DNA of 64,000 nt from Lama glama (Eukaryota): contig CM052816.1 of assembly GCA_028534125.1 (NCBI GenBank), positions 54,004,001 through 54,068,000 of the forward strand, written 5' to 3'. Shown in pieces: positions 1 through 52,159 of this stretch; position 1 is the first letter of the stretch; each line of letters begins with the position of its first letter. A model generated the notes under the pieces. It worked only from the letters and a program-made list of their open reading frames with translations, did no database searches and was not told where the DNA came from. The position numbers were made by a program, and so were the translations under genes.

Positions 1-1029
1 ACCTGGCTCATTCCCTGTTCTTAACAATCAGTCTTACTGATGTGTCTACAAACACAAAAATGTCCTTTGGCTCCTCATGTTTAGCATCACTAGTATAGAG
101 ATCTACCAGATCTATCTGTGTTCGGACTACTCCAATCTTGAACAAGTGATATTCTAATACTTACTATATTTCCCAATTTTATGAAAAGGCTCATGTCAAC
201 AGTTTGAATATTTTAAATCTGGTCTACTGCCTTTTCAGTTCTGTGCCTATTCATAGCTGAGTTGCACCTTACTAATCTGTGCAGTTGTATTTACATGAAT
301 GTAATGCTATTTTGCATTGAATTATAAGGTGGCCTCATAACATTTATGAAGTCAGTGTCACTTAATGTCAATAGTGACAGGTGTATGGTATATGCCACCA
401 GATTTGGCCCATGATAAAGAAGTTCTGTTACTGGCAATTGTGGCATGGTGGTAGAGATGTGGGGGCAGTGAGAGTGACCAGGGTGATAGTAGCAATTCAG
501 AGGGGTTTTTTAATTAATTGAAGTCCCTTTATTTATTCATTATTCTTTAGCTCCTTGTTACATAATCTACAACATCCAGAATAAGCCATCATGAGTAAAG
601 ATATATCCATGATTCTAGGCATCCACTTGTGGCCCTATGCTTCTAAGCGTTCTTACAGAGTCAGAGGTTAGGAAGATCAGATCATCTGTCTATGTGGTGT
701 GACTGAGACAGGGCACAGCTATTTTTCATGGTGGTCTATCCACTCTACAGAAGGACCAGGTTTGACTCAGGTGACTGAAATTAGCAATTATACATTCATG
801 ACCATGCCTATCTATAAATTGGTATCTCTGTTCCAAGGTATGGTATTGGAGGTTCCAAGGAACACAGAAGGAGAGATAGTCCTTGATTCTCCAGGAACTT
901 ACCAACAGTACTAAGCAGTATAGGGTGAGCTTCCAATGGACGCGATGGGTTTAAAAGAGGGAAAATTTAGAATGGGTAGCAAAAGCTGCACTGGGACTTT
1001 TTTTTTTTTTTTGGCATTTTGTCTGTATC

Positions 1030-1650
1030 TCAGTCATAGCATTTATTACACAGCATAGTTATTTGCCTACTACATGGTGGTCTTTTCCATTAGGGTATGG
1101 TCCATTCATCTTTGTCTCCTCAGCAATTTTCACAGTGCTTGGCACCTTCAATAAATGTTTAATGAATGAAGAAACGAATTTAGAGAGAAGTAGGGATTAG
1201 ATCCCTACTAATCCCTACTCCTCTATGATCTAGAAAATAGGAAAGTAAAGTAGGAGAGTTTTCCTGGTAAAGGAACGTGAGGTTGGAATATACAGTGGGT
1301 GTTCTGAAACAGATCTCGCCGGACAGGTTCGGTGGGTGAGGAGGGGGAGGTAAGTTTGGACGTGGAGGCTAGAACCAGATTGTGGAAAGACTTGAAAACC
1401 GGTTTACAGAGTTTGAACTTTATCTTCTAAGGTGAGCTGTTGGCATATTTAGTGTAGGGGAGGGATTTGACAAAAGTAGGGCATTAGGAAGATTAACTTG
1501 TCAGCTACAAGTGAAGTGGTTGGAGAAGAGACTAAAGCCAAAGAGGATAGTTAGGAGGCTACTGCAATGGTCCACATGAGAAATGCTGATGTTCTGGATG
1601 GAATGATTGGTGGTAGGAAAGTAGAGGAAGAAACAGATGCAATGAAGGAA
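1030..1650. mobile_element. L2 LINE fragments (decayed, opposite orientations)
   Basis: L2 3' end motif 'cacagtgcttggcac..tcaataaatgtttaatgaatgaa', then a purine-rich antisense L2 body ('gttaggaggctactgcaatggtcca'). Confidence 0.65.
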
Positions 1651-1729
1651 AACATATAAGAATAATGTATTAAAATAAAAATTCCAGAAAACATTCTATG
1701 GATATATTAGATTAGGAGTTTTTGTTATC

Positions 1730-1870
1730 TCACCATTCCCAGCAGCTTTTATAGTATGAATACTTGTTCTGAGCATACATTTGACTGTAAATTAGAGAGA
1801 TGTTTAGGGGAGCTAGTAAATGAATGATTTGACCCAGTGTGTTCAGGGAAAGGGACCAAGAGCCAGGTTC
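1730..1870 (-). mobile_element. MIR SINE fragment
   Basis: Degenerate MIR core ('gttatctca...taaatgaatgatttgacccagtg'). Confidence 0.45.
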
Positions 1871-4239
1871 CCATGGTGGGACTGCTGTCACTTTGCTCCC
1901 TTCAGTCTCTCCTCCTCTGCCTGAGAGCGAGCCTACAGACTGCAGAGAATTTGACTTCCTCAGGGGAACCAAGGGCTACACTTGATCATGAGGTGGGGCC
2001 TGAACATGGGAAGATGGTCATTTCCCGCAGCCTCACAAACCATCAGAATCCTCTTCTCTACAGATTTAATTAGACCCAATGCTTGGAAAATGATTTTACT
2101 TAGTCCTGAATTATGTAGAGTGATGGCAACGAGTTATTTCCTGGGTAGAGTTGGGAAGGAAACTGATCTGAAGGAAACTGAGCAGTTGTCTTTTCTTCAA
2201 TCCCAATTTTCATAAACATTTATACTGTGTAGGTTCAGGTCATGTGGACAACAGAATGACTAAGATTCTTTACCATAACTGTTATGAGGAAGCTTTTGAA
2301 GTGGGGATACTATCATTTTCATAATAAGTACAACAAAACACTTCTGTAGACATACCCACACAGAGGGAAAGATTTAGTAAGTAATATGTAACACTGAAAT
2401 CTTAATACTTCTACAGAGATCTTTGATCAATTTTCTCTTTTAAAATAAACCCACAAAATACAAAAATTAATACTGTGGCTTGGACCTAAGCTTGAAGTAG
2501 ATTATGCATCTTCAGTTTGATATTGTTTTGTGTTCCTTATTCACCTCAGTGATCAGAGGTGGCCTTAAATTTCAGCACTGAAGTGGTGCTTCATGACCTC
2601 TTGAACAGGTTAAATAAATTGTATCTATAATCCCTAAATTTAATATGATGTGTTGTTAAATGAGGAAGAGAATGAACCATTATCCTTTGTATTTGAAGAT
2701 GACTCCACTCATGGTGATTGCTGATCATGTGTGCAAGCTACCAGGAGACGTGAATGACCTGCTCCTTTCTACACTGTAATCGAAAGCTGTCTGGGCTCAT
2801 TTTCAACCCCGCCTGCAGGATCCTTCTTTACATCTTAGCTTAATAACAGTGTCACAGCAATACTATTACTGCTACTGATGATGATGGTGGTGGTGGTGGT
2901 AGTGATAATGGTGATGCCATCAACAATAATACAATAGCAGGAGACTTAATAACCAATGTAATCAATTTAATCAATAGTCTTGTTGATCTTTTATCAAAAC
3001 CCTGTGAGATGGGAAAGGATCTCATTCCCCTATTTTCTGATCACTGGACACCAATGTCATCTATTTCCAAGAATATTTAAAATTGAAAAATGCATATTTA
3101 ATTTCTCTTAAATATTAGTAGAATAATATCTTTGAATTGTTTAAATTCAGTCTTAAGTAGCTAACTGGTTTGTTTCTATCCCCAAATGATACCTTTCTTT
3201 TCTTTGGTCTTTCATGAAAATCCAAACCAAAGACACGGCTTCCATTTTCCTATTCGTTTTTTTAATATGGATTTTTAATGGCAATTTTATTCCAAACCCT
3301 GCACAAACATAAATACTGCATTAAAGGAAGATGAATTTATTTTGACCTTTACTGAAAATGCACTGTGAAACAAAGCACTTAAGCATTTATAGCCTGTTAG
3401 ACACTCACATTACCCACTTCTATGTAGATAAGAAAGTCCTTCCCAGCCAAAGTAATGTTCGCAAGTAGAGCAGTTTTACAGAGCACTTAACTGCAAAGCC
3501 AGATATCATGTTCTTCACTATGAGTCTGCTTTGGTCGGTTTTATGCATCTAAGATGTATAGAAATTAAGGGAGTATCTAAAACATTACATTCAAGAAACA
3601 TAGAGAATGACATTTTAAGGGTTTTGATGAAAATACAGGACACTTGCAACAAAATGCTTGGGGAAAACCATTATTTATTACAAAGGAGATGAGTGCACAG
3701 TGGTTTTGTTTTGTTTCTCTTTTAAAACTGTCTCATACCTCCCTCTTGCAAAGGAATTGGTGGCATTGTTTTAATTTCTGGTTTCAATTCTATTTATAAT
3801 TGCTAACATACCCTGTCCCCTCAACATAAAACACCCTCTATTTGCATAAACAGTAATGAGTATTTTTGTGCATTTTGTTTTTGACTTGATCTTTTTCCTT
3901 TAGTCATAAGCCTCTGACTGCAGAGCTATTTCCTCCTTCCAGATTCTTGTGTCAGAGAGTTGAGATGTTAAACCACAGCAACCATGAAACTTTAAAATCC
4001 CTGATGCATGATGAATGGGTGCTGGGCAAAGCAGCTTAAAATCTATGCTTTTGCTTCTCTTTAAACACTTTAAATTGACAGCGCCATAGATCAAACATTT
4101 TTACTGAGAGGAGAAGCTTTGGCAATTTAACTTAAACAAGTGCACAGTTACCATCATCTCAAGACCTCACCCCTCCACAATTACCCCTTCCACCTGGTGG
4201 ATAGGGTACATTTCTCATTCAGAGCAAGTGTGTCTGTGT

Positions 4240-4560
4240 GTGCGCGCGCGCGCCCATGCAGCTGTACTACAGAGCAGCCGCTTGTAACCTGGCTGCTGTA
4301 ACACCAAACGCAACTTCCCCCACCGACCCCCATCCCACCCATCGCACCCATTCCAGCCATCCCACACCCCGGGGCGAGCCGGGGACTTCCACCCGCTGTC
4401 CGGGCCTGCTGCGGAGCATGCGCTGTGGTCGCGCCTCCGCCCACCGCCACCATAGCCTGCCCCCAACTCGTCTCTCCTCTTCCTCCTCCTCCTCTTCTCC
4501 CTCCCCACCCCCTCCTGGAGCAGCGGAGTTGGCGCGCTGCCCATTCAGGCGTTCAGCGTC
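4240..4560. promoter_or_regulatory. Orphan CpG island
   Basis: CpG-rich tract beginning (GT)n(GC)n, with no recognisable coding exon. Confidence 0.7.
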
Positions 4561-4589
4561 AGCTCCTCAGGGATCAGCAGGCAAAGTCA

Positions 4590-5030
4590 CAGTCTGCACA
4601 AACAGAGCTTTCAAATTCATAAAATTCATAGGATTTTTCACAAATGAATGAACACAATTTTCTACCAATTTCCTCATTATGCAAATATGCAAAATATCAA
4701 ATTTAGGCCAATTAGGGTCCTCCACAGTCCCAAATTCACCCGTTTAAGCCATAATTGCAGAAACTATCAAATAATTACGGTCGCTAATTGGAAATATTTG
4801 TGACAGATACAACAAATTCTTGCACAAATTACATTTCATTCGAGGAACCACTGCGCGCCACTGAAATTTTATCGAAGTCTAATTTAACTTACATAATGAG
4901 TTGAATTGAGTACTTGTTATCAAATTTGAGCAATTCATAGCCCCGTAATGTGGAATGATCAAATAAATTAAAAGGGAATTTATTCAATATTTTGTTGTGA
5001 TCCTTTTCTCGGAACCATTGCTATTTTGTA
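4590..5030. promoter_or_regulatory. Candidate highly conserved enhancer, an AT-rich core between two CpG islands
   Basis: Octamer ATGCAAAT at 4679-4686 followed by ATGCAAAA, many TAAT/AATTA cores, and CpGs retained despite AT-richness. Confidence 0.65.
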
Positions 5031-5039
5031 GGGAATTTC

Positions 5040-6070
5040 CTCCTCCCGCGGCCCGAGACCGGTGCTTGGTGTCACGCAAGCCCCGGCTGTGCCCGCCGCG
5101 CGGCGGCGGCGGCGGCGGCGCGAGGAGGCAGCGGGTGACCGACAGGGAGCCGGGAGCTGGAGCCTCCTTGCTGCGGGCAGCAAGGCGAAAAGCCGACCCG
5201 CGTTCAGCTCCGCAAGCGCGGAGCCGTCGGAGGCCGGCTCGGCCCGGCTGCTTTGTTTTATTTAATTGGGTGGAGGGGTCAGTGAATACTTCCGGGTGAA
5301 GTGAGGGGAGTTCTAGAAATCATCCGATTTCAGGGAGTGTAAACACGTGGGGGCACACACTCCTGCCACTTGCGCATCCTACACACATGGCACACGCACA
5401 TCGCACCAGGACACATACTACACCCAGCACACACGCACCCATCTACACCATACACGCACACGCCACATGCACTTGGTCGTACGGGCACACGCCACGTATA
5501 GGCTCACACATTCTCTCTTACACACACAGCACACTGACACGCTCCTACATACTCGCACGCGCACACACGGGGCCGCCCGCACGCCGCGCAGGCTTGAGCC
5601 AGACGCGCACAGCCCGGGTGGCTGCAAAGCCTAGCCCTGCTGGGGGAGAGCAGAAGCGCGCTCCCTCGAAGGGCCTCATGCGGGCCAGTCTGCAACGGGT
5701 TAACTGATAGCTGGGGTCCCGCGACAGCGGTGTGTGTACAGTGTCTCACGGGCGGGCGGGCAGACAGACAGACACACCGGGTAGAGGAACCCACACTGTC
5801 TCTCCCTGGCCTTTGCGTGTGTCCTCTGGAGGGGTAAAACAGGGGTAATTCAATGTCTCTTTAACTGAGAGTCTCCCTGACACACGAATCCACTCAGCCC
5901 TAATGCGCGCGTGCCTTGCGCGTGGGCACAGACACACGCATCGCCGGAATTACCCTCTCCCGAAGGTCAGCTCGCGGACAGGGCATTCGTTTTCCCTTTT
6001 CACAGTCCCGCACACACATACACTAGCACATTTTTTTCCAACTGCCTTGTGGCCTCGTTGGCGGATTATA
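5040..6070. promoter_or_regulatory. Orphan CpG island containing (CGG)6 and a degenerate CA-rich tract
   Basis: High CpG density, (CGG)6 at 5101-5118, and CACACG/CGCAC-rich low-complexity sequence at about 5345-5610. Confidence 0.75.
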
Positions 6071-9000
6071 AATGTCTCCTTCTCCCTGTGATTTGTTTAA
6101 TCCGTGGAAATGGTGCTGGTCCTATGTAAACAAGCCAAGTGCGGAATGAAGGCAGTCACCCATGCGTGGCCAGCCTGCCTATTTGTCAGAAAACCTTCAT
6201 AAATACTGAGCCGGGGCTGGGCAAGGATGTGATGTCTCCATTTTTGCCAGGAAAGGGCACGAGGAAGACAAAGCGAGGCAAGGCAGCGTGTAACCTTTAA
6301 GGGACAGATAGTCTGGGAGCCCCGAGGCCGGGGAAGCTCCCGGGCTAATTCAGCGCTGGAGGATGACTGATGTGAGGCTGGCCACCGGCCTGGCGTCTGC
6401 TGCACGGGAGCAGATAGGGCCTGGGCATTTTTATACCTCGGAGCACGCAGATATGCGCCGCATCTTCTCAGGCTGCTCCCGTGAGGCGGAGGCCTTACTG
6501 CTGGGCTGGAGTTGCCCCTTGAAGAGGGAATCCCAGGAACCGGCCTATCTCCAAGCATAACCACCTCTCCTTGTAAACCTTTCTGAATATTACATTTACA
6601 ACTTCACCCGGATTCATTCAAAATTCACAGATTCTGATCTTTGGCCCCCAAACCCATCCTTTTTTTAAAAAAAAGAACAATGCATATGTGGCTAATTACA
6701 TACTCCTAACAAAAGCAGTAATTACTGCCTGTAATTATCATGGTCCTTATTTAGAAAGAATGTGAGAAAATGTCGAGTATTAAAACATGAAAGCAGCTAT
6801 TAATCAAACCTTTACACCTTCTTTAACTCAGGCGTAATGGTGGGTATTATCATAAATCTACTCTGATAGTAACACAAGAATAATGAGTTCAGTAATGATA
6901 GCGATGATGATCATAATGATTTTAACCAACAAAGAATGGTGTAGATTTATTGCTAATAATGTGGTACAGGAACCTCTTTCATTAAAATTACCTATGTGTG
7001 TTCTCCTCGCTGGGGTAACCTCTGTGTGTGTGTGTGTGCGCGCGTGTATGTGTGTTTCCACCTTTCCTTGTGGCTAAAGACCAAAGCTGATTGCTTACTG
7101 GATGAGATATCCTTCTGGAAAGCCTTTATCTGCATCCCTGTCTGGCCTCAGAGTTCTCCCTTCTCCTTAGAAGCATCTAGAACATCCAGAAACATGTTAA
7201 CTGTGTAGTACCCACTCCAGAGAGATAGCTAGGATGGTTCAAGATGGATGTGGAAGGCCCAGGGCCTGGAAAGAACAGATTTTCTGAGGCAGGCCTCCTC
7301 CTTTTCCATCCTGCCCAGCTCCTCACCCCTGCACCGTCCCCAGCAAAGATCACTACTGGGGAGTGAAGGATGGCCTTCTGCAAGGGCAGGCCCTCTAGGA
7401 CACAATCTCCTCAGTATAGGGGTGTTTGGTTTGGCGCTTTGCTTTGACACAATGGAAATGGGAGGGAGATGGGGATTCTTGAGACTCTAGCAGCTTTAAA
7501 ACTTGACTTGCCTTCCAAAGTTAAGCAAAGCCCTCAGTATAACCTGGGGCCTGGGCTGTTGGGGCCACAGAGATTGTGAAGGAAAGGCGGGCTTGGAGAC
7601 CCATTGTCTCTCAGAAGGGTGAATGCCTTAGGGACCAGCCAGCTGGAAAATACAATAAACAGAGGGAATGTTCAGGTCACCTGACTGTGTCCTTGTTTTT
7701 TAATGAAATTAACTTGACATTTGTCCTTTGCAAATGTTCTAAAAATTCTCAATGGAGATCCATGTTTTAATGTAAACTATAATATTAAACATATCATTGA
7801 AAAAAAAAACCTTCACTTTTTGGATATATTGCTCTACTTTAGTGAGGGAAAAGCCTCAGGAGTTCAAACTCCAAAACATAATTTTGGCCCTCAATTTTCA
7901 GCCCTAAGCTAACTCTCCAAAGCAAATCATAAACTTTATGAAGGCTGTTAAGAAGGCTCTGAAAATTTGAACTCCCAGAGACCAGTCAGAAAACATAACT
8001 ACCCTTCCTGAAGTCCCTGACCAGAAAAAAAGTAAATGTAGCTATGCTCAAAATCTGTAGACATACTTCGTAGTTTTCTTATGCTAATCTGATTATATTT
8101 TCTGGTGCCAACCTTTCCAATTAACTGTAAAATTCTGACAGTTATGGAATATGGATTGCAGTGGTAACGTAATTAGAACTTATACATAATAAATAATACA
8201 TCTGTAGTATTTTAACCTCCACTACCAGTTATGAGATCAGTGTGTGGGCCAATTAACTACAGGGGCTTTTTTAAAATTAAGGCACTATAAACACACTGGT
8301 TCTAAATGTTCTAATTAGTAACTTGCTCATTAATTAACTTTCTGATTAATTGTGTAGCAATCTAATTTGTAGATGAGCCACTTAAAGACTGATACCTTGT
8401 AATTCTTTCTTCTGTCTTTAAAATTCCCCCATAAAATGTGATTTTGTATCCAGCTGGCCTCTTAGTTGTGGAAATTCTTTGCTTAATAGATGCTATGCCT
8501 TTGGACTAAAATTAAATATCACTTAATCCTCCCTTATCCGTAGTGGACAGGTTGGCTGGAGGCAGTGGGGTGTGCGGGGGTGTCTGGCCAGGGCAGAGTA
8601 CTGCAAATCAGAAGAGGAAGTGAATGAGGGCCAAATTTACTCCACACACTTGAGCCTGAAAATACTTCCCCCTTTCTGATATGGAAGAGAGAAAGCATTT
8701 ATGCATGACTTTCATCAAAACCAACTCTCAAACCCAAAAACCACTTTAGGGGAAAAGAAATAATTTTTAAAGAAAACTTACTGTGGCCTCCACACCCCTA
8801 TCATGGATTAGCCCAGGGAATAATTTAATGCAGTGGACAAAGGGCTAATGGCCGATTTCAATAAAGGCCGCCTTGCACTGGAACATCCTGGGGCTGTTCT
8901 ATTAGCATCAGAAAGGGCTCGGGGTCCTCCTTCCACCAGAGCTATTGTTGCCCGGGTGTGTCGCCAGTCCCATCCTGCAGAAAGCCTTTAGCCCTGATGG

Positions 9001-10099
9001 CAGATGATTCTCTAAGTGAATAGAGATGAAGGCAGGGATATTAAGTGACTCTATAAAACATCCCGGACACAATTGTGTGATTGATGGAGGACAAAGTGGG
9101 AACAGCAGGACACAGGATCCTGGGAGAAGCAGCCTTGTCAATGCGAGAAACCCATCTCTGGAAACAGCTTCTCCTGGAGGAGTTTGCAGTCTATTTGTAT
9201 GAGTAATCAGCTGGGCCCCCTCTCTGTCAGCCCTGTTTACTCACTGATTTTCTCAACAAGACAACCATTGACACTGGATGGATGGGGCTAATCTGGCGCA
9301 GAACTGGCGGCTTCGCAGAGGCTACAGGTCGAAAATAGAGCGCGGTGCCAGCTTCACCTCGCCTAATCTAGCGGCTAATATTTATTAGAGCCAATTTATA
9401 CCGCTGCTCTCTGAAAGAGCAAGGAAGGCCTGGGTGCAATTAATAACATGGGCAATAACCACAGACAAACAAATAAATAAGGGTTTGTGAACTGTTTGGT
9501 TGGTTTTAAGGGAGGATGGGAAGGGAAAGTGTTGGGTTTGCCACCTGGAACTGGAAGGAGAGGAAGTAAAGGTAGCTGGGAAGCCCCTGATGAGGGGCTT
9601 TCTCCTTGTCCCCCTCATCCAGTCTCAGAACAACCCGGCTGGCTGCAAGATGGCTTTGGAACCTACACAAATGCATGTAATTCCACTTGCATCTAACAGA
9701 ATCTGTACAAAGGCACCTGCCCTATCAGGCACAGGTGCGTGCACACACTCCTGTTGTAAATATCCAGTTTATGCTCATCCCCACCCGAGGTGGAAGGAAC
9801 CACAAACCGCTCCCTTTGCACCGCACTCAGCAGGCAAGCCCTGCAGCCATGGAGAACAGTGGCTGGTGGCTGACTAGGAGCTAGGAGCTGGGGAGTTGGG
9901 GGAGTGGAGAGAATGCGTATATGGTCCTAGGCAGAGAGACTAGGGTCTTAGAGGCTTCAAACCCCTCCCTGTAAAATCGATGTCCTAGTACCTGAGGCCT
10001 CTTTGTAGACATGCTACCAATTGCTGAGTTTGCTGCGTTCGGATGTGTAACATGATTTTGTCGGACGAAACTGGAGAGAAACAGAAGGACAAAGTGTGT

Positions 10100-10520
10100 G
10101 TGCGATCCAGAGCGCGTCTTGGGTATGGAGTCCGGGTAGGTATCGAGTCTCCGATAGGCGCACATTGCAAAGGGTTGGTAGGAAGCGCATTGTTCATCAC
10201 TGTGCTCGGTTGCAGCGGAGGCTGCTGCACAAGTGGTGACCTCGCCGCCGCCGCCGAGGCCTGCAAACCGCAGGCTGCGAGAAAAGGAGCCCTTTGCCCT
10301 CTCGCCCTAGTCTCCCCACTCGCCCTCCCCGACCCCCTCCGGGCCAGCGGGCGCCCGCGCCTTGCTAATTGGTCGGCTCCCTTCATGCACACACCTCCAC
10401 TAATTTTACATTTCTCATTCTGCGGGTAGCTGGAAAGCGGCTCAGGGAATACGGTTCCTTCTCTTAGCTACCGCATGAATACAGTGAGTGGTGTCCGTCC
10501 AGGCCTCCCTGGTCGGGGGG
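10100..10520. promoter_or_regulatory. Small CpG-rich island
   Basis: Clustered CpGs, a (GCC)4 run and CTAATT cores on its right side. Confidence 0.55.
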
Positions 10521-11829
10521 TTTGGTAAATTAGCAGCTTGGCTATATAATCAGGCATTCGCCATTGAGGCCACAGTGCTGTATCCGTGAACCAGGTGAGA
10601 CTTCATCATCTAATGGGTTGGGAGGTGTGACCGAGCTGCTAAGTTAGCAATTAAATTTCACAAATATCATTCGATTGCATTTTTTTTCACAAGCCAGAGT
10701 CAGGTTACCCCAGGCATTAAAGGAAAAAAAAATTCCTTCCAAAAGATACGCACTAAAGAAAATGCTTTCTTTTATGACACATGTGAAATCACATGGTATC
10801 AAAACACGCTATTTTAATTCTATTATCCTATAAAACACAGCCCTTGTAGTTGTGGTTCTAAGTGTGTAGTAAAGAAAGGGAGTGTTTCTGATCAGCCAGT
10901 TCCTCCAAAGGCAGAGAAGGACTATGTGTAAAATACATCATATTAGATAGTATCTAATCTAGGACAGGAAAATCTGGGAAATAATAGAGATTTGCCCCTT
11001 TGGGCCTATTGTTTAGATTTATTATTGTATTAAGCGTTGGAATCAAAGAGAAAAGGGCAAACACTCAGGTAAAACGTTATTTCAAGCCTGTAACCCAGTG
11101 GGCAGGAGCCAGCCCCCTGGTGTCTTTGAGGCCGAAAGTCCTGTACCTCCACCTTGATGTTAGGGTGCAGCCATATAATTGGGGCTGTTTCCTGAAATTC
11201 TGGTGTGCTGTATTGGGAGATCTTAGATTTTCGTCCCCTAAACAAGAAAGCTCTCCCTTGATAGTGAGTTTCCTGTGTCTGTAGGTATATGGGATAAATA
11301 TGTGGTATCTATAATAGAGAGTAAGACAGAGAGCAAGACCTAGTAGATAGAATTTTCTAAGTGTTAAATTTCTAAATGGAAACATAACAGAAAATATTAT
11401 TAGCTTTATCTGCCGACACCAGGGACGCAGTTTAAAGTATTTTTCATTTAATTTGATAGTGAATAAAGCACTTAAGGCACTTGATGATTTATTGATCAAA
11501 TAGAAATCAGGCGCCAGACAACAGCTCCTTATTTAGTCCCCACTCACACGATTAAAAGCCAAGTGAACTTTTTTTTCTTTTTACAATTTGCTCAATACGC
11601 TTTATGTTATATAAAGAATAAAAAGAAAACCATTCTTCCGACCTATAAATCTCTCCTTTGGCTAATATGAATGACTACGGGGCACGTGAACCTCCATTGA
11701 ACTGTAAACACTGTTTTAATGGACAGTAATGGCCCTATGATTTTTAGCTATTGTTCCAAAATGACTACCATGTTTATTGCCGTCATTAAAAATGAATTAA
11801 AGAGTTATGAAACTCCTCAATAATGAGAA

Positions 11830-13010
11830 CTCGGGCCGTTTATAAGCGGTGGTTCTCTTCTCCCCAGCGCACTCGAAGGTTCTGCTGCTCTGGGTGGCGC
11901 AGGCCTCGGGACAACCACCCGGGGCAACGGGGTTGGGGGAGGGGGCAGAGCCTTTTTCTCGGGGAAACAGGTGAGGGCCTAGAGGACTGGGAGGAGAGGA
12001 AGCAAGAGGCGGTAGGGGAGGGGAGGGGAGTCGGGACAGCCCCGCCAGCTCAGATGCCCACAGGGGAGGAGGCGCGCGGGTGGGTGGAGGCAGGAGCCGG
12101 GGGTCGGGGGAGAGCAGGCTGTGCCTCCTGGGCGGCATGAGGGCTGCAGCCGGGAACCGGGACGGCTGAGGGGAGGCGTCAAGTGGAAAGAATGGAGAGA
12201 ATGAGGTGGGGGCAGGGAGCGGCGTCCATCGGGCCGTAGCTAGGCCCCCCGGAAAGCGCCCTGGGACAGGACAGGGGCCCGCGGGGGACAGGGCGGGGGC
12301 GGCCGGGCAGTCATCCCTCGCCTCCTCGGGCCCCGCGGCAGCACAGGGGGCGTCCAGCCCCCTCCCTCCGGCCCCCGTGCCGCTGGGGGCCTCGCAGGAA
12401 AATGGCTCAGCAAAGTTGCACACAGCCCGTACACTGTTCTCCGAGGGGTCCCTGGCTGGAGCCTGCACGTTTCTCTTTGCATTAGCAAAGCCCAAAGTCA
12501 TCCAGTTTGCGCTAATCACCACAATTAGTCCTGAATTATCACCGGACTCTGACAGACGTTCCTTGTAACTCTCTTTTATTTCCAACAGCCCTAATCAGCC
12601 GCTCTCATTACAAACGCTGATTAAACTGCAAATTATCCAGCAGCGGCCCTGTTCCCGTCTACCAGCAGCTCGTTCAATATCAATTAAGGCCGAGCGGCAA
12701 AGCCTGCAGCCTCCGAGAGCTTCCAACTGCCTGATAGTGGCACTTATTAGTTTGGAAAACTAGGAAAATACTAATAATCAACAACCTAGGGGAAAGAGGA
12801 GGCAACCAAACAAAAGGAAGGCAGGAACGCAGCCGGAGAAAGGAGCGAGGCGCCGCCGCCTGCCCACCCCCCATGCCTCTGGCCCCAGGTGCGATCCCAG
12901 CCCTGAACCCGGGGCGGGGCTCCCGGGAGGGGTCCCTTCACTGGGAGGGCCCCAGTTCCCAGAACCAGCGAGGATGTGCCGGCCAGCCAAATAAATACAT
13001 TCGCTAACGT
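11830..13010. promoter_or_regulatory. Orphan CpG island with an embedded homeodomain-motif-rich core (about 12470-12700)
   Basis: GC/CpG-rich flanks surround a core with CTAATC x2, CAATTA x2, GAATTA, GATTA, CATTA and AAATTA. Confidence 0.75.
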
Positions 13011-14699
13011 ATTGTCTTAGGCTCACTCGAGACTTTTTTTTTTTCCACAAAGAATGCATCGAATTTGGGCATTTAAAACCAACCTAACTTCCAGAACTGC
13101 CTTTATCGAGTCGTTCTGAAATCCGTTTCCAATAAGCAGTTTCGTTTGATGCTTAAAAAACATTGACCTCGTCTCGTAAATAAAAAGGGAGTTGATGACG
13201 GCTGATTTTATTTACCTATTCTGTCAAATTAGATTTCCACGGCAGAGCGCTGTTCACATGGGCTGCAAAAATGCAGTGCTGCCGCTCCACCTCGGGACTG
13301 AAGTGAAAAGACAAAAGCTGCCTTTCTCTCCTCTCCTTGCCCAATCTCTCCCTCTCTGCTTCTCCTCCCTCTCACTTTCTTTCCTCGGAGGGTGGCTGCA
13401 GACAGGAGAAACTAGCTCTACCCCTCCAAGGAAATTTGGATTTACCAAGGGATTTGATTGGGAGGGGTGAAGGAAACCGCCGGAGAAAGGCCCTGGTGGG
13501 TTTTAAGGGGGCTACAACTTTTCAGTCTGGGCCACTAACCCTTCTAGCCACCCTCTGTCCCCTCAGCAGGAACAAGCTCCCTGATCGCTTTTCTTTCCTG
13601 TTTAATGGAATTGCCCCTCACCTTCAAACACTAAAACATCAGGAGAGCCATAACTCCCTAAAGCTGGAGAAAGGAGTTAATAAGCTGTTAATTTCTATCC
13701 AGAATTAGACGAGGTATGTGTTTGAGAGTTAACAATGTATGTGTGTATTTGTTTCACTAAAAACTGATGGACCCAAATCCCTTTGAGAATTTGAGTAAGG
13801 AGTGAATTATTGGAGACTGCTTAATGTGGCTAAGCCCATCAGATTTATTCTTTTCAAAAGAAGTGGGAAGTTTACGTTTTTGTCCCTTTCCTAAACTGGG
13901 AGCAAGCTAGTTATAGTTACATCTTCTCAAAATTTAAACACAAGAAAAGATCTCCTGTTCCCAAGGAGCTGATGTGCTTCCTTCTCTCTGGAGTGGAAAA
14001 ACCATGACTGGTTGTTTTCCCTTTTGCATTGACTGCCAGGAAGCTCAAAGCTAAACCCTTTGCATGCCTAGCATGCATGCTTAGCATGATACCTATCTTT
14101 GTGATAGAATTACTTCCTCTCATTCCTTTACCCTCTATTTCTCCTGCTTTTTGTTGGAAATAAGCAGCATGTAAACAAATGTCTTCTGAATATTTTTACT
14201 CTGTCTTTACAACACCAGCCCTACTTTGAGAAGTATAGCACTTGTATAATTGAATATACTTTGGGCTTCTTGGGGGAAAGACCCTTTATAATTTCAGGCA
14301 TTTGCCTCATTCTATTTCTGACACTTAGCTGCCTTCCAAACTATAGGAGAAATTCCTTTGATTTAAAGAATGTTTCTGCTCTTTCTCATCAGTGTTGGTG
14401 ATGCCATCTGTCTTCCTTTACACGTTCACAACCACTACTACCTTGGCTAGGACTTGGATCATCTTATGCCCCCATTTCAAAAGGAGGATTCTAAGCGAGT
14501 CTCCCAAACAGTTCCCAGTAAGATCTCCTAAAACCACTGTGGTCTCCAACTGCAGCTCAAATAGCATTTTCTTCTCTCAATCGTTTAACATATTTTGTGC
14601 ATATATCTCTTGAAACTTCATAATTTCTGTTTTGATGCTAATCTTCATTTGCTATTATTGGCTTTTACCCAACCTCAAGCTTTTCCTATTTGAAAATAT

Positions 14700-14860
14700 A
14701 TTATTGCTATGTGTCAGGTCCTTGCTAAATTCTTTATGTGTATATCTCATTTGATCCCTAAACAACTCTCTGTTGTAGGTAGTATTATCAATACCACTAT
14801 TCACATATAAAACTTATAAAATAAGAGCTCAAAGATCACTAGCTAGTGGCTGTGTGAATC
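14700..14860 (-). mobile_element. MIR SINE fragment
   Basis: 'tgtgtcagg..tgctaaattctttatgtgtatatctcatttgatcc..aacaactct..gtaggtagtattat' matches the MIR core. Confidence 0.6.
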
Positions 14861-17800
14861 AGAGGACCAAGCATGGATTCTGCCTTTGCTGAGTATTTGG
14901 CCTATCCAATCTTTGAGGAAGGAATGAGGCTTTCTGTTTTGTTCTCTTCTATTTCACATAGTAAAATGGCATTTAGGAAAACCATACATGGAATGCCAGA
15001 TATTTCAAATCTGTAGGATCCCCTTCCCCCAACTACACACAAATATGCTTTCAAAGAGGTTGACTTTGATAATGAGGTTTCCTACTCCAAAGTCTCAGCG
15101 AACATAATCTCTGGATTATCCATTTTCTCACTAAATTGGGGAAACATTTCCTTCTTGTACTAGTAAATCCACCCTGATCCGATTGCCACTAGTAGCTGTT
15201 GACACGTACCTAAGAAAACACGCTCCTGGGGAGTCCCCTTCTTGGGACAACACTCTGATAAGTACAGGACAAGGCATCTCTCCAGCTGGCATGGGTCAAA
15301 CCTTCGGAAGCGCACTCCCACAGCATTTTGGAATTCGGCATTCCAAATAATAAGCTTCCCATGTGAGATCCATTCAAAAGGCAAGATTAGAGGAACTAGC
15401 TAAGGACAGCTTTTAAATAAAGACATATGTGCAAGAGTTTGTGAATTTTCTATAAAAGCTGAAATTATTTCCTCAGTCAATTTAGCAATATTGGTGGGAG
15501 GAGAGTTTTGCCCAAGTGTCCTGAAACCCAGATTAAAGTCCTCATCTTGATGAGCAAGGCCTTATTTTGGATATTTTTTAATCTAATTTTATGTCCTGTC
15601 ATGAAAACCTTGAAAAATTACTTGCTGTCATGACATTTTAAAAATTGCCTTTTATCCCTGAAACTAGAGAATAAAGATGCTTTTAGCAATAAAATATTGT
15701 ACAGGATAAGGCCCATGTTTAAAAATACTGCTGACAAAGACACATTTGAAAAAAAAAACAACTAATGCTACTGCCACTCGCAGGTTGAGCCTCCTTGTGC
15801 GAACCTTTGGTGTAGACATCTAAGAGGCCATTTCTACTTACATGGAACAGTTAGAGGTTATTGTAACCATCTTAGCAATAGACAGGAGCTCAGCTGGAAC
15901 TGATATGTGTGATCACTGATTGATTACCTGTCTGCTTGATAGTGTGTAGTTGAGTGAACTCGTTTCCTTTACAGGACAGAAAGATTCACAAAGTAGAAAG
16001 TGCAGGTCCTTAAATTACATGAAAATTAATGTTAAGGATATCGTGATGAATCTCTGTGCATATATATGCACATATTATGGGTGTGGGTATACCCTGATTT
16101 AAGAAAATCACAGCTGTGGCAGTCTATATTTACAGCACAGACAAAAGGATGACATTATTAGCTTTACAAAAAAGAATAATTTATTTCCTACTGGAGAATT
16201 AGCCTCAAGCTTCTGCATTTTCCTATTGCATTTGACCCACAGTTTGATCTGTAACTGTTCTCTTTAAACACAGCTTTGTGGGGACTCATCCCTTGCACAA
16301 AGCAAGGTGCATCTATATTGTCTGTTTTCTCAGAATTCTGTTGCTCGAATAAGAATATCTTATTCACCTTCCTAACCCAAGAGCTGAGAAGAGTACCTTT
16401 AAATAATAACCGTTCCATAGGTATCGGCTGAAATGAAAACAGGAAAACTAGTGTTGCTGTGACGATAGCCCTGGGTCCTTAGTTCTTTCTTTGCTGGGTC
16501 CGCACTTGAAGGACTGATCTGCTAGTAGGAAGGAGATGGTTGCATTTTTGCAGTGTTTGTTCCTGTTTGCTATTATGTCTCTTGAGAGCAGGATCAGGTC
16601 TAGACTCAAAATACTACTTACTGGGCTGCCCTAACTACTTCTCTCTGATGTCTGAGGTCAGTTGGAGGCTCTGCTTCAGTTAATCTTTCTAGTGTTTGGC
16701 CGGTGTATTGGTCTTCTTCCACCTCAATTCAGTGAACAGAAACCCAGCTCTCATACCTGCCCTCATTAATTCTGCTAAGGTGGAGGGGATGCAGCCTGTA
16801 ACGCAATGTCCCAGATGTGCACTTATGTCAGAATTCATTGACATCCATTTGTCCATCCAAAGGAATCCACATAACCAGCCAGGCTCCCTGTCGCTGACTT
16901 CATGTGACTCTAGGTGCTCCAGTACTCAATATCTTAATAACTGGTTACTACCATAAGTTGATATTCCCAAGAGTGGTGGGTGGGGCTTAATCTTTATGAG
17001 TCATGGATTCCTTTGAGGATCTGATGAGTTATAAACCTACTCCTCAGAAAGATGCACATATTCACATTCCTGGAAAATTCTGCATACAATTTTAACCCCA
17101 GGTTAAAAATCTCTTCCTTACAGATGGGCCTCTTTAGTCTTTGTTTGCTCTGAGTCACGCCATCAGAGTTCTTGTTCACTCATCACCAGTAACAAAAATA
17201 GTAACTGAGGGAAGATTAAGTCACCTTTTTTCAAATTCCTACAAGAACCATTAATATCTGTGAAATCAGTTTCTCTCTTTCTCTTATAATCACCAGTTCA
17301 CACGTGTACACAGTGTTCTGCCTTTAGGCTGTTTCAGTGTGCCCATCTTTAGACGGAAGTAACCTCATTCATACATATGCACATGGACAGCTAAATACGC
17401 TAAACTTATACTAGCATTTTTAACAGAACAAAAGGAAATCTTAGGTTTCACTCTCTTTTTCTTTTATGTCTCCTTTCCCATCTCTGACAGATTTGTCACA
17501 AATACTGAAAGGGACAAAAAGAGAAGATACAAAGCCCTAGTAAGCCAGACTAACCTAATCAATCATGTCAAGCTGTCTATTTCAGATGGAGACCCCACAT
17601 CATGCAAATCTACCTATAGATTTGCATGTGTATAACATACACACATTTAGGATTTCTGAAGGAAAGTTTTTCATTCCCTTTGTGAGAACTAAGCAAAACT
17701 CTAAATAGTTCTTCCTTTAAAATGCCAGAGCAGATGTATTTTCAGATAACCTGTCATGTATGTAACCAAAGTGGACTTTTAATTATGGGACATTAACTCT

Positions 17801-18999
17801 AAATTAATATCTCATTATAACCAGAGAGTATAGAGCATATAAACTGTCATCAGAACTGAACACATTTGTACTTTATGGGATCAGTTTTGATTTTTGCTGC
17901 TCGCTTCTTTAGAGTTCCGTCTCACCTCCATCCCAAATGCCTTTTCCAACAGTACTCAGAGCAGGGGAGCTTTTATTCACCCTGTGAGCAGTGGCAGCTT
18001 GAATGGCAATTGCTCTAAACACGGCACCAGAGGGTCCAATCAGACTCTTTGAGGAGTGATGCTGCCACCTGCATCCCTGTCCTAGATAGGCTCTTCTGTG
18101 GCATCCTGGAAACAGCAGTAAAGCAATAACCCCACGTTGTGTGTTCACTTCTCCCAACCCACATCTGAAGCCAGAATATTTTGCTCAGTGGCTTGGATCA
18201 AGTTCCTAACTTTGCTAGGTCTGGGTGACCAATGAACAAAATAATTCTTTTACTCACAAGGACTCTGAGAATCTTGATTAAGCAGTTTAAGAATTAAAAG
18301 TATAACAAGATATTAACAATATATTCTAGAGAAATATTGAAAATTCAGGGAAAGAAGCCCCCACTGAGAATAGGAGGCAACCATCTGAATAAGGCAGAAT
18401 AACTGGCAAAGAAGAAAATCAAGATGGCAACTACGAACAATGAACATAGTTTTCTTATAGATCTATTTTTCTTATAAAAACATTCATGAAAATTGTATTC
18501 TTGAATACACTCTTGAGTGAAAAATTTATACACATTATTCTTATTAATAATAAAGAGATTAACAGTATATTCATAAAAAATCTTCATATTTAATAAATAT
18601 ATATTCTCCTGTACTCCTCAGTCTCTCCCTCAGTTTTCTCTTCACCTCCAACTTCAGCAGCAGCAAATGGACAGAGAAAATTTAAATCTGTCAAATGTCA
18701 TTATGAAGACAGAGTTAAGTCAATCTAAAATAGTTGAAAGAAACAAGGAAATTCAGCTTTCGTTGAATTGGCTTTGAGCAAATTGGCCTTCTTGCTTCAG
18801 TACCAGATTCTCCTGCTATTAACCAGTTTTGAATCCAGTCTTAACTATAGGGTTTCTGTCTTGTTCCTAAGTCCCACATCTCACCTAATCCTTCAGGTCT
18901 CGTGAATGGATTTCCCTGCTGTTCATTGAGTCTAGGCTCTGCCTTCTTGCCAGTACAGTTTTCAGATAGGAAGTCCTACCCCTATGGCTAGAGTCCTGT

Positions 19000-43290: not shown

Positions 43291-43369
43291 GTAGATGCCC
43301 CTAACAATTCATAAATAGAGCAGAGAACATAATATTGGGAAGGGTTTAAATAGTGATCAATTCATACGG

Positions 43370-49040: not shown

Positions 49041-50978
49041 AATTCCTGACTCTGGAAACAGTTACACCTGATGCCCTATCCTTAGGGATGGGGCCAAAAC
49101 CCATAGCTTCAAGCATGCAATATAGACACATGGACACAGATACACAAACACTGTCTTTGAGGGCCTGGGCATGGCCCTGGGTACATACAGCATCAGCAGA
49201 GGTCTTTTCACTGGTACATACACTAGTTTATTACTGGTTCACAGATACAAAAATCATCAGACCAAAGAGATAAAAAGCAAATGGGTGGAGGCAGAGTTGG
49301 GGGTTTGGAGAAACAGTAGATGTTTACATCAGAAAACCTAGGCTGAGAGAAATCCTGCAAATCAGTGCAAAACTAAGCTCTGAGGTTCTGGAAATCAAGG
49401 CAAAAAGGAAAATATGAAGAGTAATAGGGCTTTGTTCCTTGACAGTAGCAACAGCCGTAGCTGCACAATCTTTTGGTGTGTGGGTCTGACTGCTGTTGTT
49501 TCTTTGCCTTAAGGGGTTGCCCAGTAACTGTATGTTAATGATCTACTGGATTTCTGATTGTAGCATTTTGCTTTGGTGAGTCTGGTGGTTTTCCTGTTTT
49601 GTTTTATTTTTACTACCGCCCCCACTCCCCAGTATTTCATAGCTCTGCTATGTCACTTGAAATTGTATTTTAGTGTGCCAACCAGTCAGATGACAGTATT
49701 TACTGAATTTAACACCTGCTGTGTACAGAACACAGGTGGAAGCTAGGAGAGGAAGATTTAGAGAAGACAAGATTCTTACCTCTAAAGATGTTTATAATCC
49801 AACAAGGAGAGTGAGCACGCCCTCGTGAAGGACTCAAACAATAGTTTTTAGAAGAAATATACCAAAAATAAAAATTAATACTGGGTGATTCCAACGTATC
49901 CAGAGAGCATTAAATAAGCAGGGGTCAGTCATGGTAGACTTTCTCCAGGAAGTGGGTTTTGATTTTGGATTTATGCTATTTTAACTGGCAGGATCTTGAA
50001 CTGTCCGGAGCTAGCCACAAAAGCCAGCATGAGTTAATTAAGTGTAGGGAAGGGTAAAGACAGTCAGGTAAGTGTTTTTCAAGAATGACACCAAGAAATA
50101 AGAAAACAAAGAGGCTCTGCCCTGTGTTTCTTGGGGACACCGTCAGGAAGAGGCTGCTAGAGCTTACCGGAGGTGCGCCTCACTTTAGGCAATAGACATG
50201 GTTTTTGAAAATGTAAAACAATAGTCAAAAGCTGTTGAGTATCTACTGTGTGTTAGGCATTGAGCTTTAACCTTCATATCTGCACTGTGAAGCGGCCATT
50301 ATTATTCCATTTTGCACGCAAGGCAACAGGCTCAGCAGCAAGGTTAAGGAGCCTATGTGAGCCCAGTGTCATTTAGCTATTGAGGGGTAAAACCTCGAGT
50401 GTCAGTTGGTTTGCTTGATCACGAAGCCCAATCTTTTGTGTGCCATATACTTTTGTAAGTTGAATACTTAAGATACATAAGAGGTGATGATTATTTGATT
50501 AAGTCCTGTAGTCATTTCTTTTGTGACGTGCATTTATCTAGTTTTTGCGGAGGTCTGAGGTAGAGGGTAAGGATTTTCTTAACTGCGCACATGATAGTTT
50601 ATTTTTTTAAACCTACATCATTTTGCCCCATTTGAAGCTAGATAATGACATCGAAAATATCTTATAGACAATTTTTAGATCATTTCATCCATTTAGCAGA
50701 TAATCTTGAAAAGCAAATTCATGGCCAGTCTATCCAGGCAGACACCGAAGTTTCCACGAACACCCAGGCTTTGGAGACCGGGAAAAGTGTAACTTGTGTC
50801 CACACTAAAAGGAGGGCTGTTCAAGAACTAAAAGGAGGGTTGTCTGAGCGAGAGCAGGACAGGTTCCGCGAGAAAAGTGGGTGGAATGGGGCACAGCAGG
50901 CGAGGAGTGACCCGCCCCCCGCCCCCCTTGGCCCCCGCCCCGCGGGTGTGGCTGCGGCGCCGGGGACGCGCCGGGGTG

Positions 50979-50990
50979 TGCGCATGCGCG
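50979..50990. promoter_or_regulatory. NRF1 binding site
   Basis: TGCGCATGCGCG matches the NRF1 consensus YGCGCAYGCGCR, about 105 bp upstream of the ATG. Confidence 0.75.
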
Positions 50991-51093
50991 CCGGGCCGCG
51001 GCGGCTACGCGGACGAGACCGCCTCTTTCGCGCCGTCTCCCTTCACGGTTACCCCGGCTCTCTGCCCCTCCTTCCCGCGGCGCTCGAGGGACC

Positions 51094-51146
51094 ATGGCCG
51101 ATCCTCGCGTGAGGCAGATCAAGATCAAAACCGGCGTGGTGAAGCG
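51094..51146 (+). CDS. TBCA: Tubulin-specific chaperone A (tubulin folding cofactor A), coding exon 1; later exons lie beyond the window
   Basis: ACCATGG Kozak start, 53 nt translating to MADPRVRQIKIKTGVVK(R), which I recognise as the TBCA N-terminus. A canonical donor CG|GTAAGA follows at 51147 (phase 2). No exon 2 was recognised downstream. Confidence 0.96.
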
Positions 51147-52159
51147 GTAAGAAGCCGGAGACGGCGCAGCCGCCGCCGCCTCCTCTCCCCCGCCTCATGG
51201 CGGCCCGAGAAGCCGGGCGGAGCGCAGGCCCGAGGCGGGCCCCGGACTCCAGGCCTCACCTGGGGCGCCGCGGCCGGTGGGGACGGGGCAGGGACGGAGG
51301 GGGCGCGCGGGGGCCCGAGTCCGTGGGCCGAAGCACTCCTGTCTCCCTTTTCCCCCAGAAGCTGGGTGGTGGAGGGCGAGAGTCGCGGCGGCCCCGCCCC
51401 TCCTGCGACCGCGGTGGGGAAGGCGGAGGGGCGGCGGCCCAGCCCCGCGACGCTGGGCCGAGCTCGGGTCCTACCTCCGGGTGCGCGCCCCGGGTCTCCT
51501 TGCCGAACCCGACTGGAGGAGGGCGCGTTCAGTCCATTACCGGCCCTCAGGTGGACGCGCAGGCCCGTGGTGAAGTTTAGGAGGGTCGCCGCGAGCCCCT
51601 TCCTCATCCAAAGCGAGACCTTGCGAGCGCCCCGTCATCTAACGTGGCCGGCGTGACTCGTAGCCTTAAAAACCGGGGCGTGAACTTCTAGCACACTCGA
51701 CAAACTTCTGTGGCCTAACTCTCCCCAGGCAATTCCCTGAGGCTCGCCCCACAGCCTGTGGGATGCTGTTTAACTATCTGTCCTGGGTATGCCAGTCCTG
51801 TAATTGGCCGTCATTCTGACCGCTGATAGACACTGAAGTGCTTATTAGAACTTTATTATTCAGACCCCAAAAGATCAAACTTTTGAGTCAAGCATTTCAA
51901 GAGAAAAGGTGAACAGCCTTCTGAAGAAGCAGGTTATTGCAGTGGAAATCTCTAATCCTAGCTGTCTGGCTAATTCCTCTTTGCCCACCTTTTCTCCCTT
52001 TACCGGTATTTTCACCAGGCGAATGACAAGGCAAAGGGGAAAATAAATTCACTTTTTAGGATGTTGCCTCCCAGAGTTCGCAAATCACTGTGCTTTCCTA
52101 GAAGCTGTCTTTATTGTTACAGCAGTAAGGACATAGGATAGGTAGTAGTTAAATGTACA

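What the first reader, a model, noticed from the sequence alone, without database searches (positions are those of the whole stretch)
3100..14650. About 11.5-kb apparently transposon-free, gene-less regulatory block with alternating orphan CpG islands and homeodomain-site modules
Seen: no SINE, LINE or LTR recognisable by eye here, whereas the rest of the window is full of them, and there are four CpG-rich islands with no coding exon. Established: transposon-free regions with orphan CpG islands mark developmental regulatory blocks, and TBCA neighbours the homeobox gene OTP in mammals. Inference: this is a long-range enhancer cluster for OTP that skips the bystander housekeeping gene TBCA, with the islands possibly acting as Polycomb-bound tethering elements.
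Basis: partly seen in the sequence, partly recalled or inferred. Interest (0 to 1): 0.7.

Follow-up and report, generated by a model that had tools for sequence, protein, structure and literature searches.

The report
Known ultraconserved block near OTP gene
This 11-kb transposon-poor stretch with four CpG islands is the counterpart of an already catalogued ultraconserved human region, and it likely helps control the brain-development gene OTP from a distance, though that link is untested.

Summary
The observation largely holds. Window 3,100-14,650 has four CpG islands (CpG o/e 0.53 vs 0.14 elsewhere), no Pfam-matching ORF, and no significant hit to the window's own repeats. An L2-like remnant probably trims the right end to about 14,350. 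TAAT-site enrichment is real in three modules, not throughout. The block is not new. Published uc.158 primers match exactly at 12,499-12,676. The human coordinates of uc.159 (UCNE OTP_Frodo, VISTA hs264) project onto the AT-rich valley at about 4,560-5,020. The human counterpart is the catalogued 11.7-kb transposon-free region hs5.254, in the UCNEbase OTP regulatory block. Human fetal retina shows H3K27me3 with H3K4me1/2/3, H3K27ac and Pol II at OTP_Frodo, which fits Polycomb-marked islands. Against a plain enhancer cluster: hs264 is negative in E11.5 mouse reporters, a retinal peak-to-gene table links it to TBCA, and uc.158 gives an RNA on the TBCA strand whose 5' end projects into island 4, so 'gene-less' holds only for coding exons. 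I found no contact or deletion data linking the block to OTP. Most likely it is a Polycomb-bookmarked long-range element for OTP (about 0.55). The elements are known; the mechanism is open.

The parts
3100..14350 (.). Transposon-poor block; counterpart of human transposon-free region hs5.254 (11,740 bp), which projects to about 2,100-13,890 if indels are ignored
   Evidence: window-derived repeat searches; published list, mapped with a recalled hg18-hg38 offset that was cross-checked on hs5.253 and hs5.255
4243..4558 (.). CpG island 1 (GC 0.68, o/e 0.81)
4560..5020 (.). AT-rich valley between islands 1 and 2; likely uc.159 / UCNE OTP_Frodo / VISTA hs264 (assigned by position and length only)
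   Evidence: predicted 4,526-4,572 to 4,997-5,043 from hg38 coordinates; GC falls to 0.26-0.40 over 4,561-5,040
4944..6610 (.). CpG island 2 (GC 0.58, o/e 0.81), with (GCG)7 at 5,100-5,120 and a CA-rich degenerate stretch at 5,340-5,580
6640..7000 (.). AT-rich module enriched for TAAT homeodomain cores
   Evidence: TAATYR 7 vs 2.1 expected (p=0.018, region picked by eye)
8060..8520 (.). AT-rich module enriched for TAAT homeodomain cores
   Evidence: TAATYR 11 vs 2.7 expected (p=0.004, region picked by eye)
9978..10586 (.). CpG island 3 (GC 0.56, o/e 0.80)
11781..13113 (.). CpG island 4 (GC 0.59, o/e 0.65); the most promoter-like island (10 GC-box-like words vs 3.3 expected); the published uc.158- 5' end would project to about 12,150-12,190 on the + strand
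   Evidence: RACE +306 nt from PMC5530482 (mouse liver RNA); projection assumes no indels
12453..12722 (+). Ultraconserved element uc.158 (224 bp lies within these bounds), TAAT-rich; + is the strand of the uc.158- RNA and of TBCA
   Evidence: published primers F2 and R2 match with 0 mismatches at 12,499-12,518 (+) and 12,657-12,676 (-), 0 of 100 shuffles; TAATYR 6 vs 0.8
14350..14580 (+).
   Evidence: score 59 vs window 1,440-1,700, 2 of 300 random windows as high; not significant against two other copies
14720..14798 (+). MIR-like copy just outside the block
   Evidence: held out, E=0.22; held out, E=0.024
50746..51822 (+). TBCA promoter CpG island with an NRF1-type palindrome at 50,980 and coding exon 1 (ATG at 51,094), about 38 kb from uc.158

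Best explanation
This block is the counterpart of human transposon-free region hs5.254, carrying ultraconserved element uc.158 and probably uc.159, and it likely acts as a Polycomb-bookmarked long-range regulatory element for the homeobox gene OTP, across the bystander gene TBCA. Shown here: four CpG islands interleaved with AT-rich modules, three of them TAAT-rich, and no detectable repeat. Shown in published human data: uc.159/OTP_Frodo is open chromatin with both H3K27me3 and H3K4 methylation. Inferred: unmethylated islands poor in NRF1/CRE/CCAAT-type sites recruit PRC2/PRC1 and loop to the CpG-rich OTP promoter about 205-213 kb away (human distance). Homeodomain factors would then bind the AT-rich modules in particular neural cells and switch OTP on or tune it. 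Insertions would be purged because they break the modules or bring methylation into the islands. A context-dependent element of this kind could be silent as an isolated E11.5 reporter.
For: Exact uc.158 primer matches. uc.159 coordinates project onto the sharply bounded AT valley. Human TFR hs5.254 was found at the hg18 position I predicted before looking. UCNEbase names the cluster after OTP as its putative target. OTP_Frodo has H3K27me3 in 3 of 4 and H3K4me3 in 4 of 4 fetal retina stages, is DNase/ATAC-open, and shares a retinal TAD with TBCA but not with the AP3B1 promoter. No NRF1, CRE or CCAAT consensus word in the four islands, while the TBCA island has an NRF1 palindrome, in line with Ku 2008 (PMC2567431, passages). 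Orphan CGIs boost poised-enhancer contact with CpG-rich developmental promoters (Pachano preprint, abstract and section 3). 61% of developmental enhancers skip neighbours (10.1101/2022.11.18.516017, passages).
Against: VISTA hs264 is negative, as are hs172 and hs265 in the same cluster; the only positive listed (hs262 = otpECR6, forebrain) lies 6.6 kb from the OTP start, not here. Retinal peak-to-gene links OTP_Frodo to TBCA. H3K4me3, H3K27ac and Pol II at OTP_Frodo, the GC-box-rich island 4 and the uc.158- RNA look promoter-like. The UCNEbase target is a synteny-based inference. uc.159 is assigned by position, not sequence. No chromatin or contact data from this species were seen. TAAT enrichment is absent from the presumed uc.159 module.
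Confidence: 0.55

Rival explanations
1. The block is a purely repressive or topological Polycomb element (silencer or tether) for OTP. It holds OTP in a Polycomb loop and has no activating modules of its own.
For: hs264 reporter-negative; H3K27me3 at OTP_Frodo in retina; precedent in the Hoxa2 Polycomb tethering element, which keeps H3K27me3 (PMC13376775, passages).
Against: H3K27ac, H3K4me1 and Pol II are also at OTP_Frodo; TAAT-rich modules suggest factor binding; Hoxa2PTE has CTCF sites, whereas my single CTCF consensus found none here and the retina table lists no CTCF at OTP_Frodo.
Confidence: 0.15
2. The islands are mainly bivalent promoters of non-coding RNA or of a far-upstream TBCA-strand transcript (uc.158- from island 4), and the constraint acts through transcription or the RNA.
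For: uc.158- is an RNA on the human minus strand with a RACE-mapped 5' end 306 nt upstream, Wnt-induced in liver cancer and proposed as a miR-193b decoy (PMC5530482, passages and supplement part 1). That strand is window +, the TBCA strand. One human TBCA annotation spans both UCEs. H3K4me3 and Pol II are present.
Against: The uc.158 RNA strand folds no better than shuffles (z=-0.49); no Rfam match; normal human liver is reported negative for the RNA; mouse annotation has uc.158 intergenic; one transcript start does not explain four islands, a second UCE 7.5 kb away and 11 kb without transposons.
Confidence: 0.15
3. The block is an enhancer cluster for the nearest genes, TBCA (or AP3B1), not OTP.
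For: Retinal GREAT and peak-to-gene assignments give TBCA; TBCA is the nearest promoter in the window (38 kb).
Against: GREAT is proximity-based, and that study's GREAT targets were filtered for retinal expression. TBCA has a housekeeping-type NRF1 CpG promoter. In the GRB model, bystanders do not respond to such elements (PMC5585340 passages; PMC2688929 passages).
Confidence: 0.1
4. The repeat gap and CpG enrichment are a neutral by-product, or an artefact of undetected old repeats.
For: No repeat library could be run; the window-derived searches miss some old copies (1 of 11 MIR, 3 of 8 L2 ends).
Against: The human counterpart is RepeatMasker-defined transposon-free over 11.7 kb, one of 856 such regions of 10 kb or more; uc.158 primers match exactly; CpG o/e is 0.53 vs 0.14.
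Confidence: 0.02

Closest known systems
Human transposon-free region hs5.254 (Simons et al. 2007, PMC2241635; hg18 chr5:77,174,846-77,186,586)
   Same: Same locus by projection from uc.158, nearly the same length (11.7 kb vs about 11.3 kb here), holds both UCEs
   Different: Projected edges sit about 1 kb left (2,100) and 0.5 kb left (13,890) of the edges seen here; the name occurs only in the human list among the six supplementary files searched; the hg18-hg38 offset is recalled
Ultraconserved elements uc.158 and uc.159 (coordinates from PMC12660711); T-UCR uc.158- (PMC5530482)
   Same: uc.158 primers match exactly; uc.159 fits by position and length; strand relation to TBCA is the same
   Different: Distance from uc.158 to TBCA is about 38 kb here, about 68 kb in human (derived) and 78.6 kb in mouse; full-length identity and transcription were not tested in this species
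UCNEbase OTP ultraconserved genomic regulatory block: OTP_Frodo = VISTA hs264 (PMC10881467 supplements, PMC3531063)
   Same: OTP_Frodo overlaps uc.159 and projects to about 4,490-4,980; the cluster is named after OTP
   Different: hs264 is reporter-negative; the validated OTP enhancer (hs262/otpECR6, PMC4248439) is another element near the gene
Poised enhancers with orphan CpG islands (Pachano et al., 10.1101/2020.08.05.237768)
   Same: Distal CpG islands beside conserved TF-site modules, H3K27me3 plus H3K4me1, CpG-rich developmental gene in the domain
   Different: No ES-cell p300/H3K27me3 profile, activation, contact or deletion data for this block; H3K4me3 and Pol II point partly to promoter character
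Hoxa2 Polycomb tethering element (PMC13376775)
   Same: Distal H3K27me3-marked region, next to orphan CpG islands, in a homeobox regulatory landscape
   Different: Hoxa2PTE is 36-42 kb, has CTCF sites, and has contact and deletion proof; none of these is shown here

Membership tests
Transposon-free region (Simons) | >=10 kb with no RepeatMasker DNA/LINE/SINE/LTR annotation, in this genome | tested here: inconclusive
   No repeat library; window-derived searches show no significant hit over about 3.1-14.3 kb but miss 1 of 11 MIR and 3 of 8 L2-end copies, and no DNA-transposon or LTR profile was used
Transposon-free region (Simons) | Human counterpart is a listed TFR >=10 kb | tested here: met
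   hs5.254, 11,740 bp; offset recalled, cross-checked because hs5.253 then holds the OTP start and uc.157, and hs5.255 holds OTP_Hans
Ultraconserved element uc.158 | Sequence identity with the published element | tested here: met
   Both published primers match with 0 mismatches, 178 bp apart end to end, inside a 224-bp element; only these 40 bases were compared
Ultraconserved element uc.159 / UCNE OTP_Frodo | Sequence identity with the published element | tested here: inconclusive
   Position and length fit the AT valley; no sequence comparison was obtained
Orphan CpG island | GC>0.5, CpG o/e>0.6, >200 bp | tested here: met
   4 islands
Orphan CpG island | Distant from an annotated protein-coding start | tested here: met
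   TBCA exon 1 is about 38 kb from island 4; no Pfam ORF; a non-coding start in island 4 is suggested by published RACE
Orphan CpG island | Unmethylated in vivo | not testable with these tools
   Only implied by CpG retention
Genomic regulatory block element | Member of a syntenic conserved-element cluster around a developmental TF gene | tested here: met
   OTP_Frodo is in the UCNEbase OTP cluster; rests on the positional assignment of uc.159; OTP itself is outside the window
Genomic regulatory block element | Regulates the target gene and not the bystander | not testable with these tools
   No contact or deletion data found; retinal peak-to-gene points to TBCA
Poised enhancer | H3K27me3 with p300/H3K4me1 in pluripotent cells, H3K27ac on differentiation | not testable with these tools
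   Only human fetal retina marks were seen: H3K27me3, H3K4me1/2/3, H3K27ac, Pol II in bulk tissue
Classical developmental enhancer | Reproducible reporter activity in vivo | not testable with these tools
   Published result for hs264 is negative at E11.5; no result found for uc.158 or the other modules ('hs263', a recalled id: no hit in PMC10881467 supplements, and no relevant paper)
Polycomb tethering element | Persistent H3K27me3, contact with the target promoter, deletion impairs enhancer recruitment | not testable with these tools
   H3K27me3 in 3 of 4 fetal retina stages; contact and deletion unknown; no CTCF consensus word (one recalled pattern)

The most novel reading that the evidence does not exclude
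The block is a spacing-locked Polycomb tethering hub for OTP. Its ultraconserved cores are reporter-silent because they work topologically, with the islands. The 7.5-kb interval between uc.159 and uc.158 is held to within tens of bases between human and this mammal, while the distance to TBCA varies from 38 to 79 kb. It would be a compact natural test case for why some ultraconserved elements show no enhancer activity and why transposon-free regions exist.
Probability: 0.2. Interest if true: 0.6.

Novelty: already known. Interest (0 to 1): 0.27.

Why it matters
The elements are catalogued, so the discovery value is low. What stays open is function. OTP specifies neuroendocrine hypothalamic neurons (PMC4248439), and its loss is linked to obesity and anxiety in a mouse paper cited in PMC12660711 (title only seen). 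If this block tethers or tunes OTP, it is a place to look for non-coding variants. It would also be a clean deletion test of why a reporter-negative ultraconserved element sits among Polycomb islands. It may also change how the uc.158- 'lncRNA' of liver cancer is read: as a transcript from a de-repressed Polycomb island on the TBCA strand.

Tried and rejected
No whole genome is held for this window, so no genome-wide copy-number test of repeats was possible. A first tile search timed out and was rerun with filters. Self-BLAST alone was rejected as evidence for 'transposon-free', because it also misses the old repeats in 1-18,449. Two-to-three-copy L2 body profiles found only their own seeds. 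Protein-coding reading rejected: 0 of 21 ORFs >=100 aa hit Pfam. Structured-RNA reading rejected: no Rfam hit; uc.158 folding z=-0.49. Direct TCF control of uc.158: no CTTTGWW word in 11,500-13,200 or 4,000-5,100 (recalled consensus). The zebrafish otp ECR study concerns elements near OTP, not this block. Kikuta 2007 (Genome Research, and a Genome Biology companion) could not be read; its otp content is known to me only as a citation in PMC4248439 and from recall. PMC13513235's supplement could not be read, parts 2-3 of PMC5530482's supplement (RACE figure) were not read, and bioRxiv supplements are closed; any of these may hold element sequences or OTP contacts. Earlier scan notes: nothing on this place, its relatives or these words. 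No cross-species alignment and no expression reads for the block were obtained, so uc.159 identity, conservation of the 6.6-7.0 and 8.1-8.5 kb modules, and transcription in this species remain open.


Full report
Setting. The window is mammalian DNA with L1 pieces, a tRNA-headed SINE family and old MIR/L2-like remnants (family names are my recognition, not a library result). TBCA coding exon 1 begins at 51,094 on the + strand: the translated 18 residues match PDB 1h7c, tubulin-specific chaperone A, at E=1.3e-5. It sits in a 1.1-kb CpG island. The block lies 37-48 kb upstream. OTP is outside the window. No whole genome is held.

CpG islands. The block has 335 CpG at o/e 0.53, against 256 at o/e 0.14 in the rest of the window without the TBCA island. 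Four islands pass a 200-bp GC>=0.5, o/e>=0.6 scan: 4,243-4,558, 4,944-6,610, 9,978-10,586 and 11,781-13,113; a fifth patch trims to 107 bp. A 500-bp stricter scan also gives four, the first borderline. With recalled consensus words, none of the four has an NRF1, CRE or CCAAT site, while the TBCA island has an NRF1 palindrome. Island 4 has 10 GC-box-like words against 3.3 expected and one YY1-like word, so it is the most promoter-like.

Coding and RNA. All 21 ORFs of 100 aa or more, out of 42 of 80 aa or more, lack Pfam matches. Rfam finds nothing at E<=0.1.

Repeats. Self-BLAST covers 0% of the block and 13.8% of the rest, but finds nothing anywhere in 1-18,449, so it does not test old repeats. 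nhmmer with 319 tiles gave two block hits at E 0.026-0.05, a level at which the reversed-window null gave six. Leave-one-out profiles recovered 10 of 11 MIR-like copies (E<=0.024) and 5 of 8 L2 3' ends (E<=0.12), with null hits no better than E=1.4. The block had one hit at E=1.6 in 19 runs. The longest hit-free gap is 13.5 kb around the block and the next is 4.4 kb; seeds were hand-picked outside the block. An L2-like piece at about 14,350-14,580 (2 of 300 random windows score as high against one copy; not significant against two others) probably shortens the block. The MIR-like piece I saw at the left edge was the one copy not recovered.

Homeodomain modules. TAATYR is enriched over dinucleotide shuffles in 3 of 7 eye-picked modules: 6,640-7,000, 8,060-8,520 and 12,450-12,780. 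It is not enriched at 4,530-5,050 or 11,420-11,850. In fixed bins, 3 of 23 inside and 6 of 105 outside exceed z=2; totals are 40 vs 25.5 expected inside and 155 vs 170 outside. The alternation is real but less regular than the title suggests.

Identity with known elements. The uc.158 qPCR primers of PMC5530482 (supplement part 1 of 3 read) match the window with no mismatch at 12,499-12,518 (+) and 12,657-12,676 (-). PMC12660711 (passages and supplement rows) gives hg38 uc.158 at chr5:77,844,429-77,844,652, uc.159 at 77,852,108-77,852,579 and the OTP start at 77,638,712. Anchored on the primers and with no net indel, uc.159 falls at 4,526-4,572 to 4,997-5,043. This is the AT-rich valley (GC 0.26-0.40 over 4,561-5,040) between islands 1 and 2. 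The assignment rests on position and length, so any claim of frozen spacing depends on it. With a recalled hg18 offset I predicted a human transposon-free region near chr5:77,174,000-77,186,000, and the list of Simons 2007 (PMC2241635; passages and supplement rows) has hs5.254 at 77,174,846-77,186,586. With the same offset, neighbours hs5.253 and hs5.255 hold the OTP start with uc.157, and OTP_Hans. Human has 856 such regions of 10 kb or more.

Published functional data. In PMC10881467 (passages and supplement rows), UCNE OTP_Frodo (77,852,176-77,852,611) overlaps uc.159. It is DNase- and ATAC-open in fetal retina. It carries H3K27me3 in 3 of 4, H3K4me3 in 4 of 4, H3K27ac in 3 of 4 and Pol II in 1 of 4 fetal stages, with no CTCF. 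It is VISTA hs264, negative at E11.5. hs172 and hs265 in the cluster are negative too; hs262, next to OTP, is positive in forebrain and contains zebrafish otpECR6 (PMC4248439; parts 1-2 of 6 and passages). Peak-to-gene linkage gives TBCA for OTP_Frodo and OTP for OTP_Faust and OTP_Florentino. UCNEbase names a block after its putative target, inferred from genomic context (PMC3531063, passages). uc.158 is not among the OTP rows I saw there.

'Gene-less' needs a caveat. PMC12660711 counts both UCEs as intronic to a TBCA annotation reaching 77,868,780, while mouse uc.158 is intergenic and PMC10881467 lists OTP_Frodo as intergenic. uc.158- is an RNA on the human minus strand with 306 extra 5' bases by RACE on mouse liver RNA (PMC5530482, passages). 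Here that is the + strand, the TBCA strand, and the start would fall near 12,150-12,190 in island 4. That strand folds no better than shuffles (z=-0.49), and no TCF consensus lies near it.

Mechanism. Shown: islands, AT-rich modules, uc.158, absence of detectable repeats, and mixed Polycomb and active marks on the human counterpart in bulk retina. Inferred: the islands recruit Polycomb (Ku 2008, PMC2567431, passages), help the block contact a CpG-rich developmental promoter (Pachano preprint, abstract and section 3), and let homeodomain-bound modules act on OTP about 205-213 kb away, past TBCA. Precedents are promoter skipping (10.1101/2022.11.18.516017, passages), the GRB model (PMC2688929 and PMC5585340, passages) and the Hoxa2 tethering element (PMC13376775, passages). 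Text searches of these four papers and of Ku 2008 found no mention of OTP. I put this reading at 0.55, a silencer or tether without activating modules at 0.15, a non-coding or far-upstream TBCA-strand promoter at 0.15, a TBCA/AP3B1 enhancer at 0.10, and a neutral gap at 0.02.

Novelty. The region, both elements, their transposon-free state in human and their assignment to OTP are in print. Ten searches of the CC-licensed library (listings only, except for the papers named above and PMC13513235 and PMC9829027, passages) showed no contact or deletion study of the block. Subscription papers, including Kikuta 2007, were not readable. Verdict: real, already known as a feature, function untested; interest 0.27.

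Noticed in passing
window 12,150-12,720 (+): The published uc.158- RNA runs on the same strand as TBCA and its RACE 5' end would fall in island 4, so it could be a transcript from a de-repressed Polycomb island or a far-upstream TBCA start rather than an independent lncRNA.
   Followed up: partly
window 12,700 to 51,094: uc.158 to TBCA is about 38 kb here, about 68 kb in human and 78.6 kb in mouse, whereas the uc.159-uc.158 interval appears unchanged (positional assignment only).
   Followed up: partly
window 50,746-51,822: TBCA promoter CpG island with an NRF1-type palindrome at 50,980, GC boxes and coding exon 1 at 51,094.
   Followed up: yes
window 19,492-19,597 (-), 34,631, 35,097, 38,466, 46,606, 63,588: Six copies of a tRNA-headed SINE family; three reach Rfam's tRNA threshold (34,634, 46,628, 63,600) and are most likely SINE heads, not tRNA genes.
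   Followed up: partly
window 41,101-45,521: Second-longest gap without repeat hits (4.4 kb), with a TAAT-rich bin at 41,001-41,500 (9 vs 2.6 expected); other TAAT-rich bins at 34,501, 46,501 and 57,501. Possibly further conserved elements.
   Followed up: no
window 63,277-63,457: About three tandem copies of a roughly 57-bp unit, 93% alike between the outer copies.
   Followed up: no
window 22,599-22,881: Weak CpG patch (GC 0.51, o/e 0.59, 11 CpG) outside the block.
   Followed up: no
window 5,340-5,580: CA-rich degenerate simple sequence with 18 CpG, which supplies part of island 2's CpG count.
   Followed up: partly
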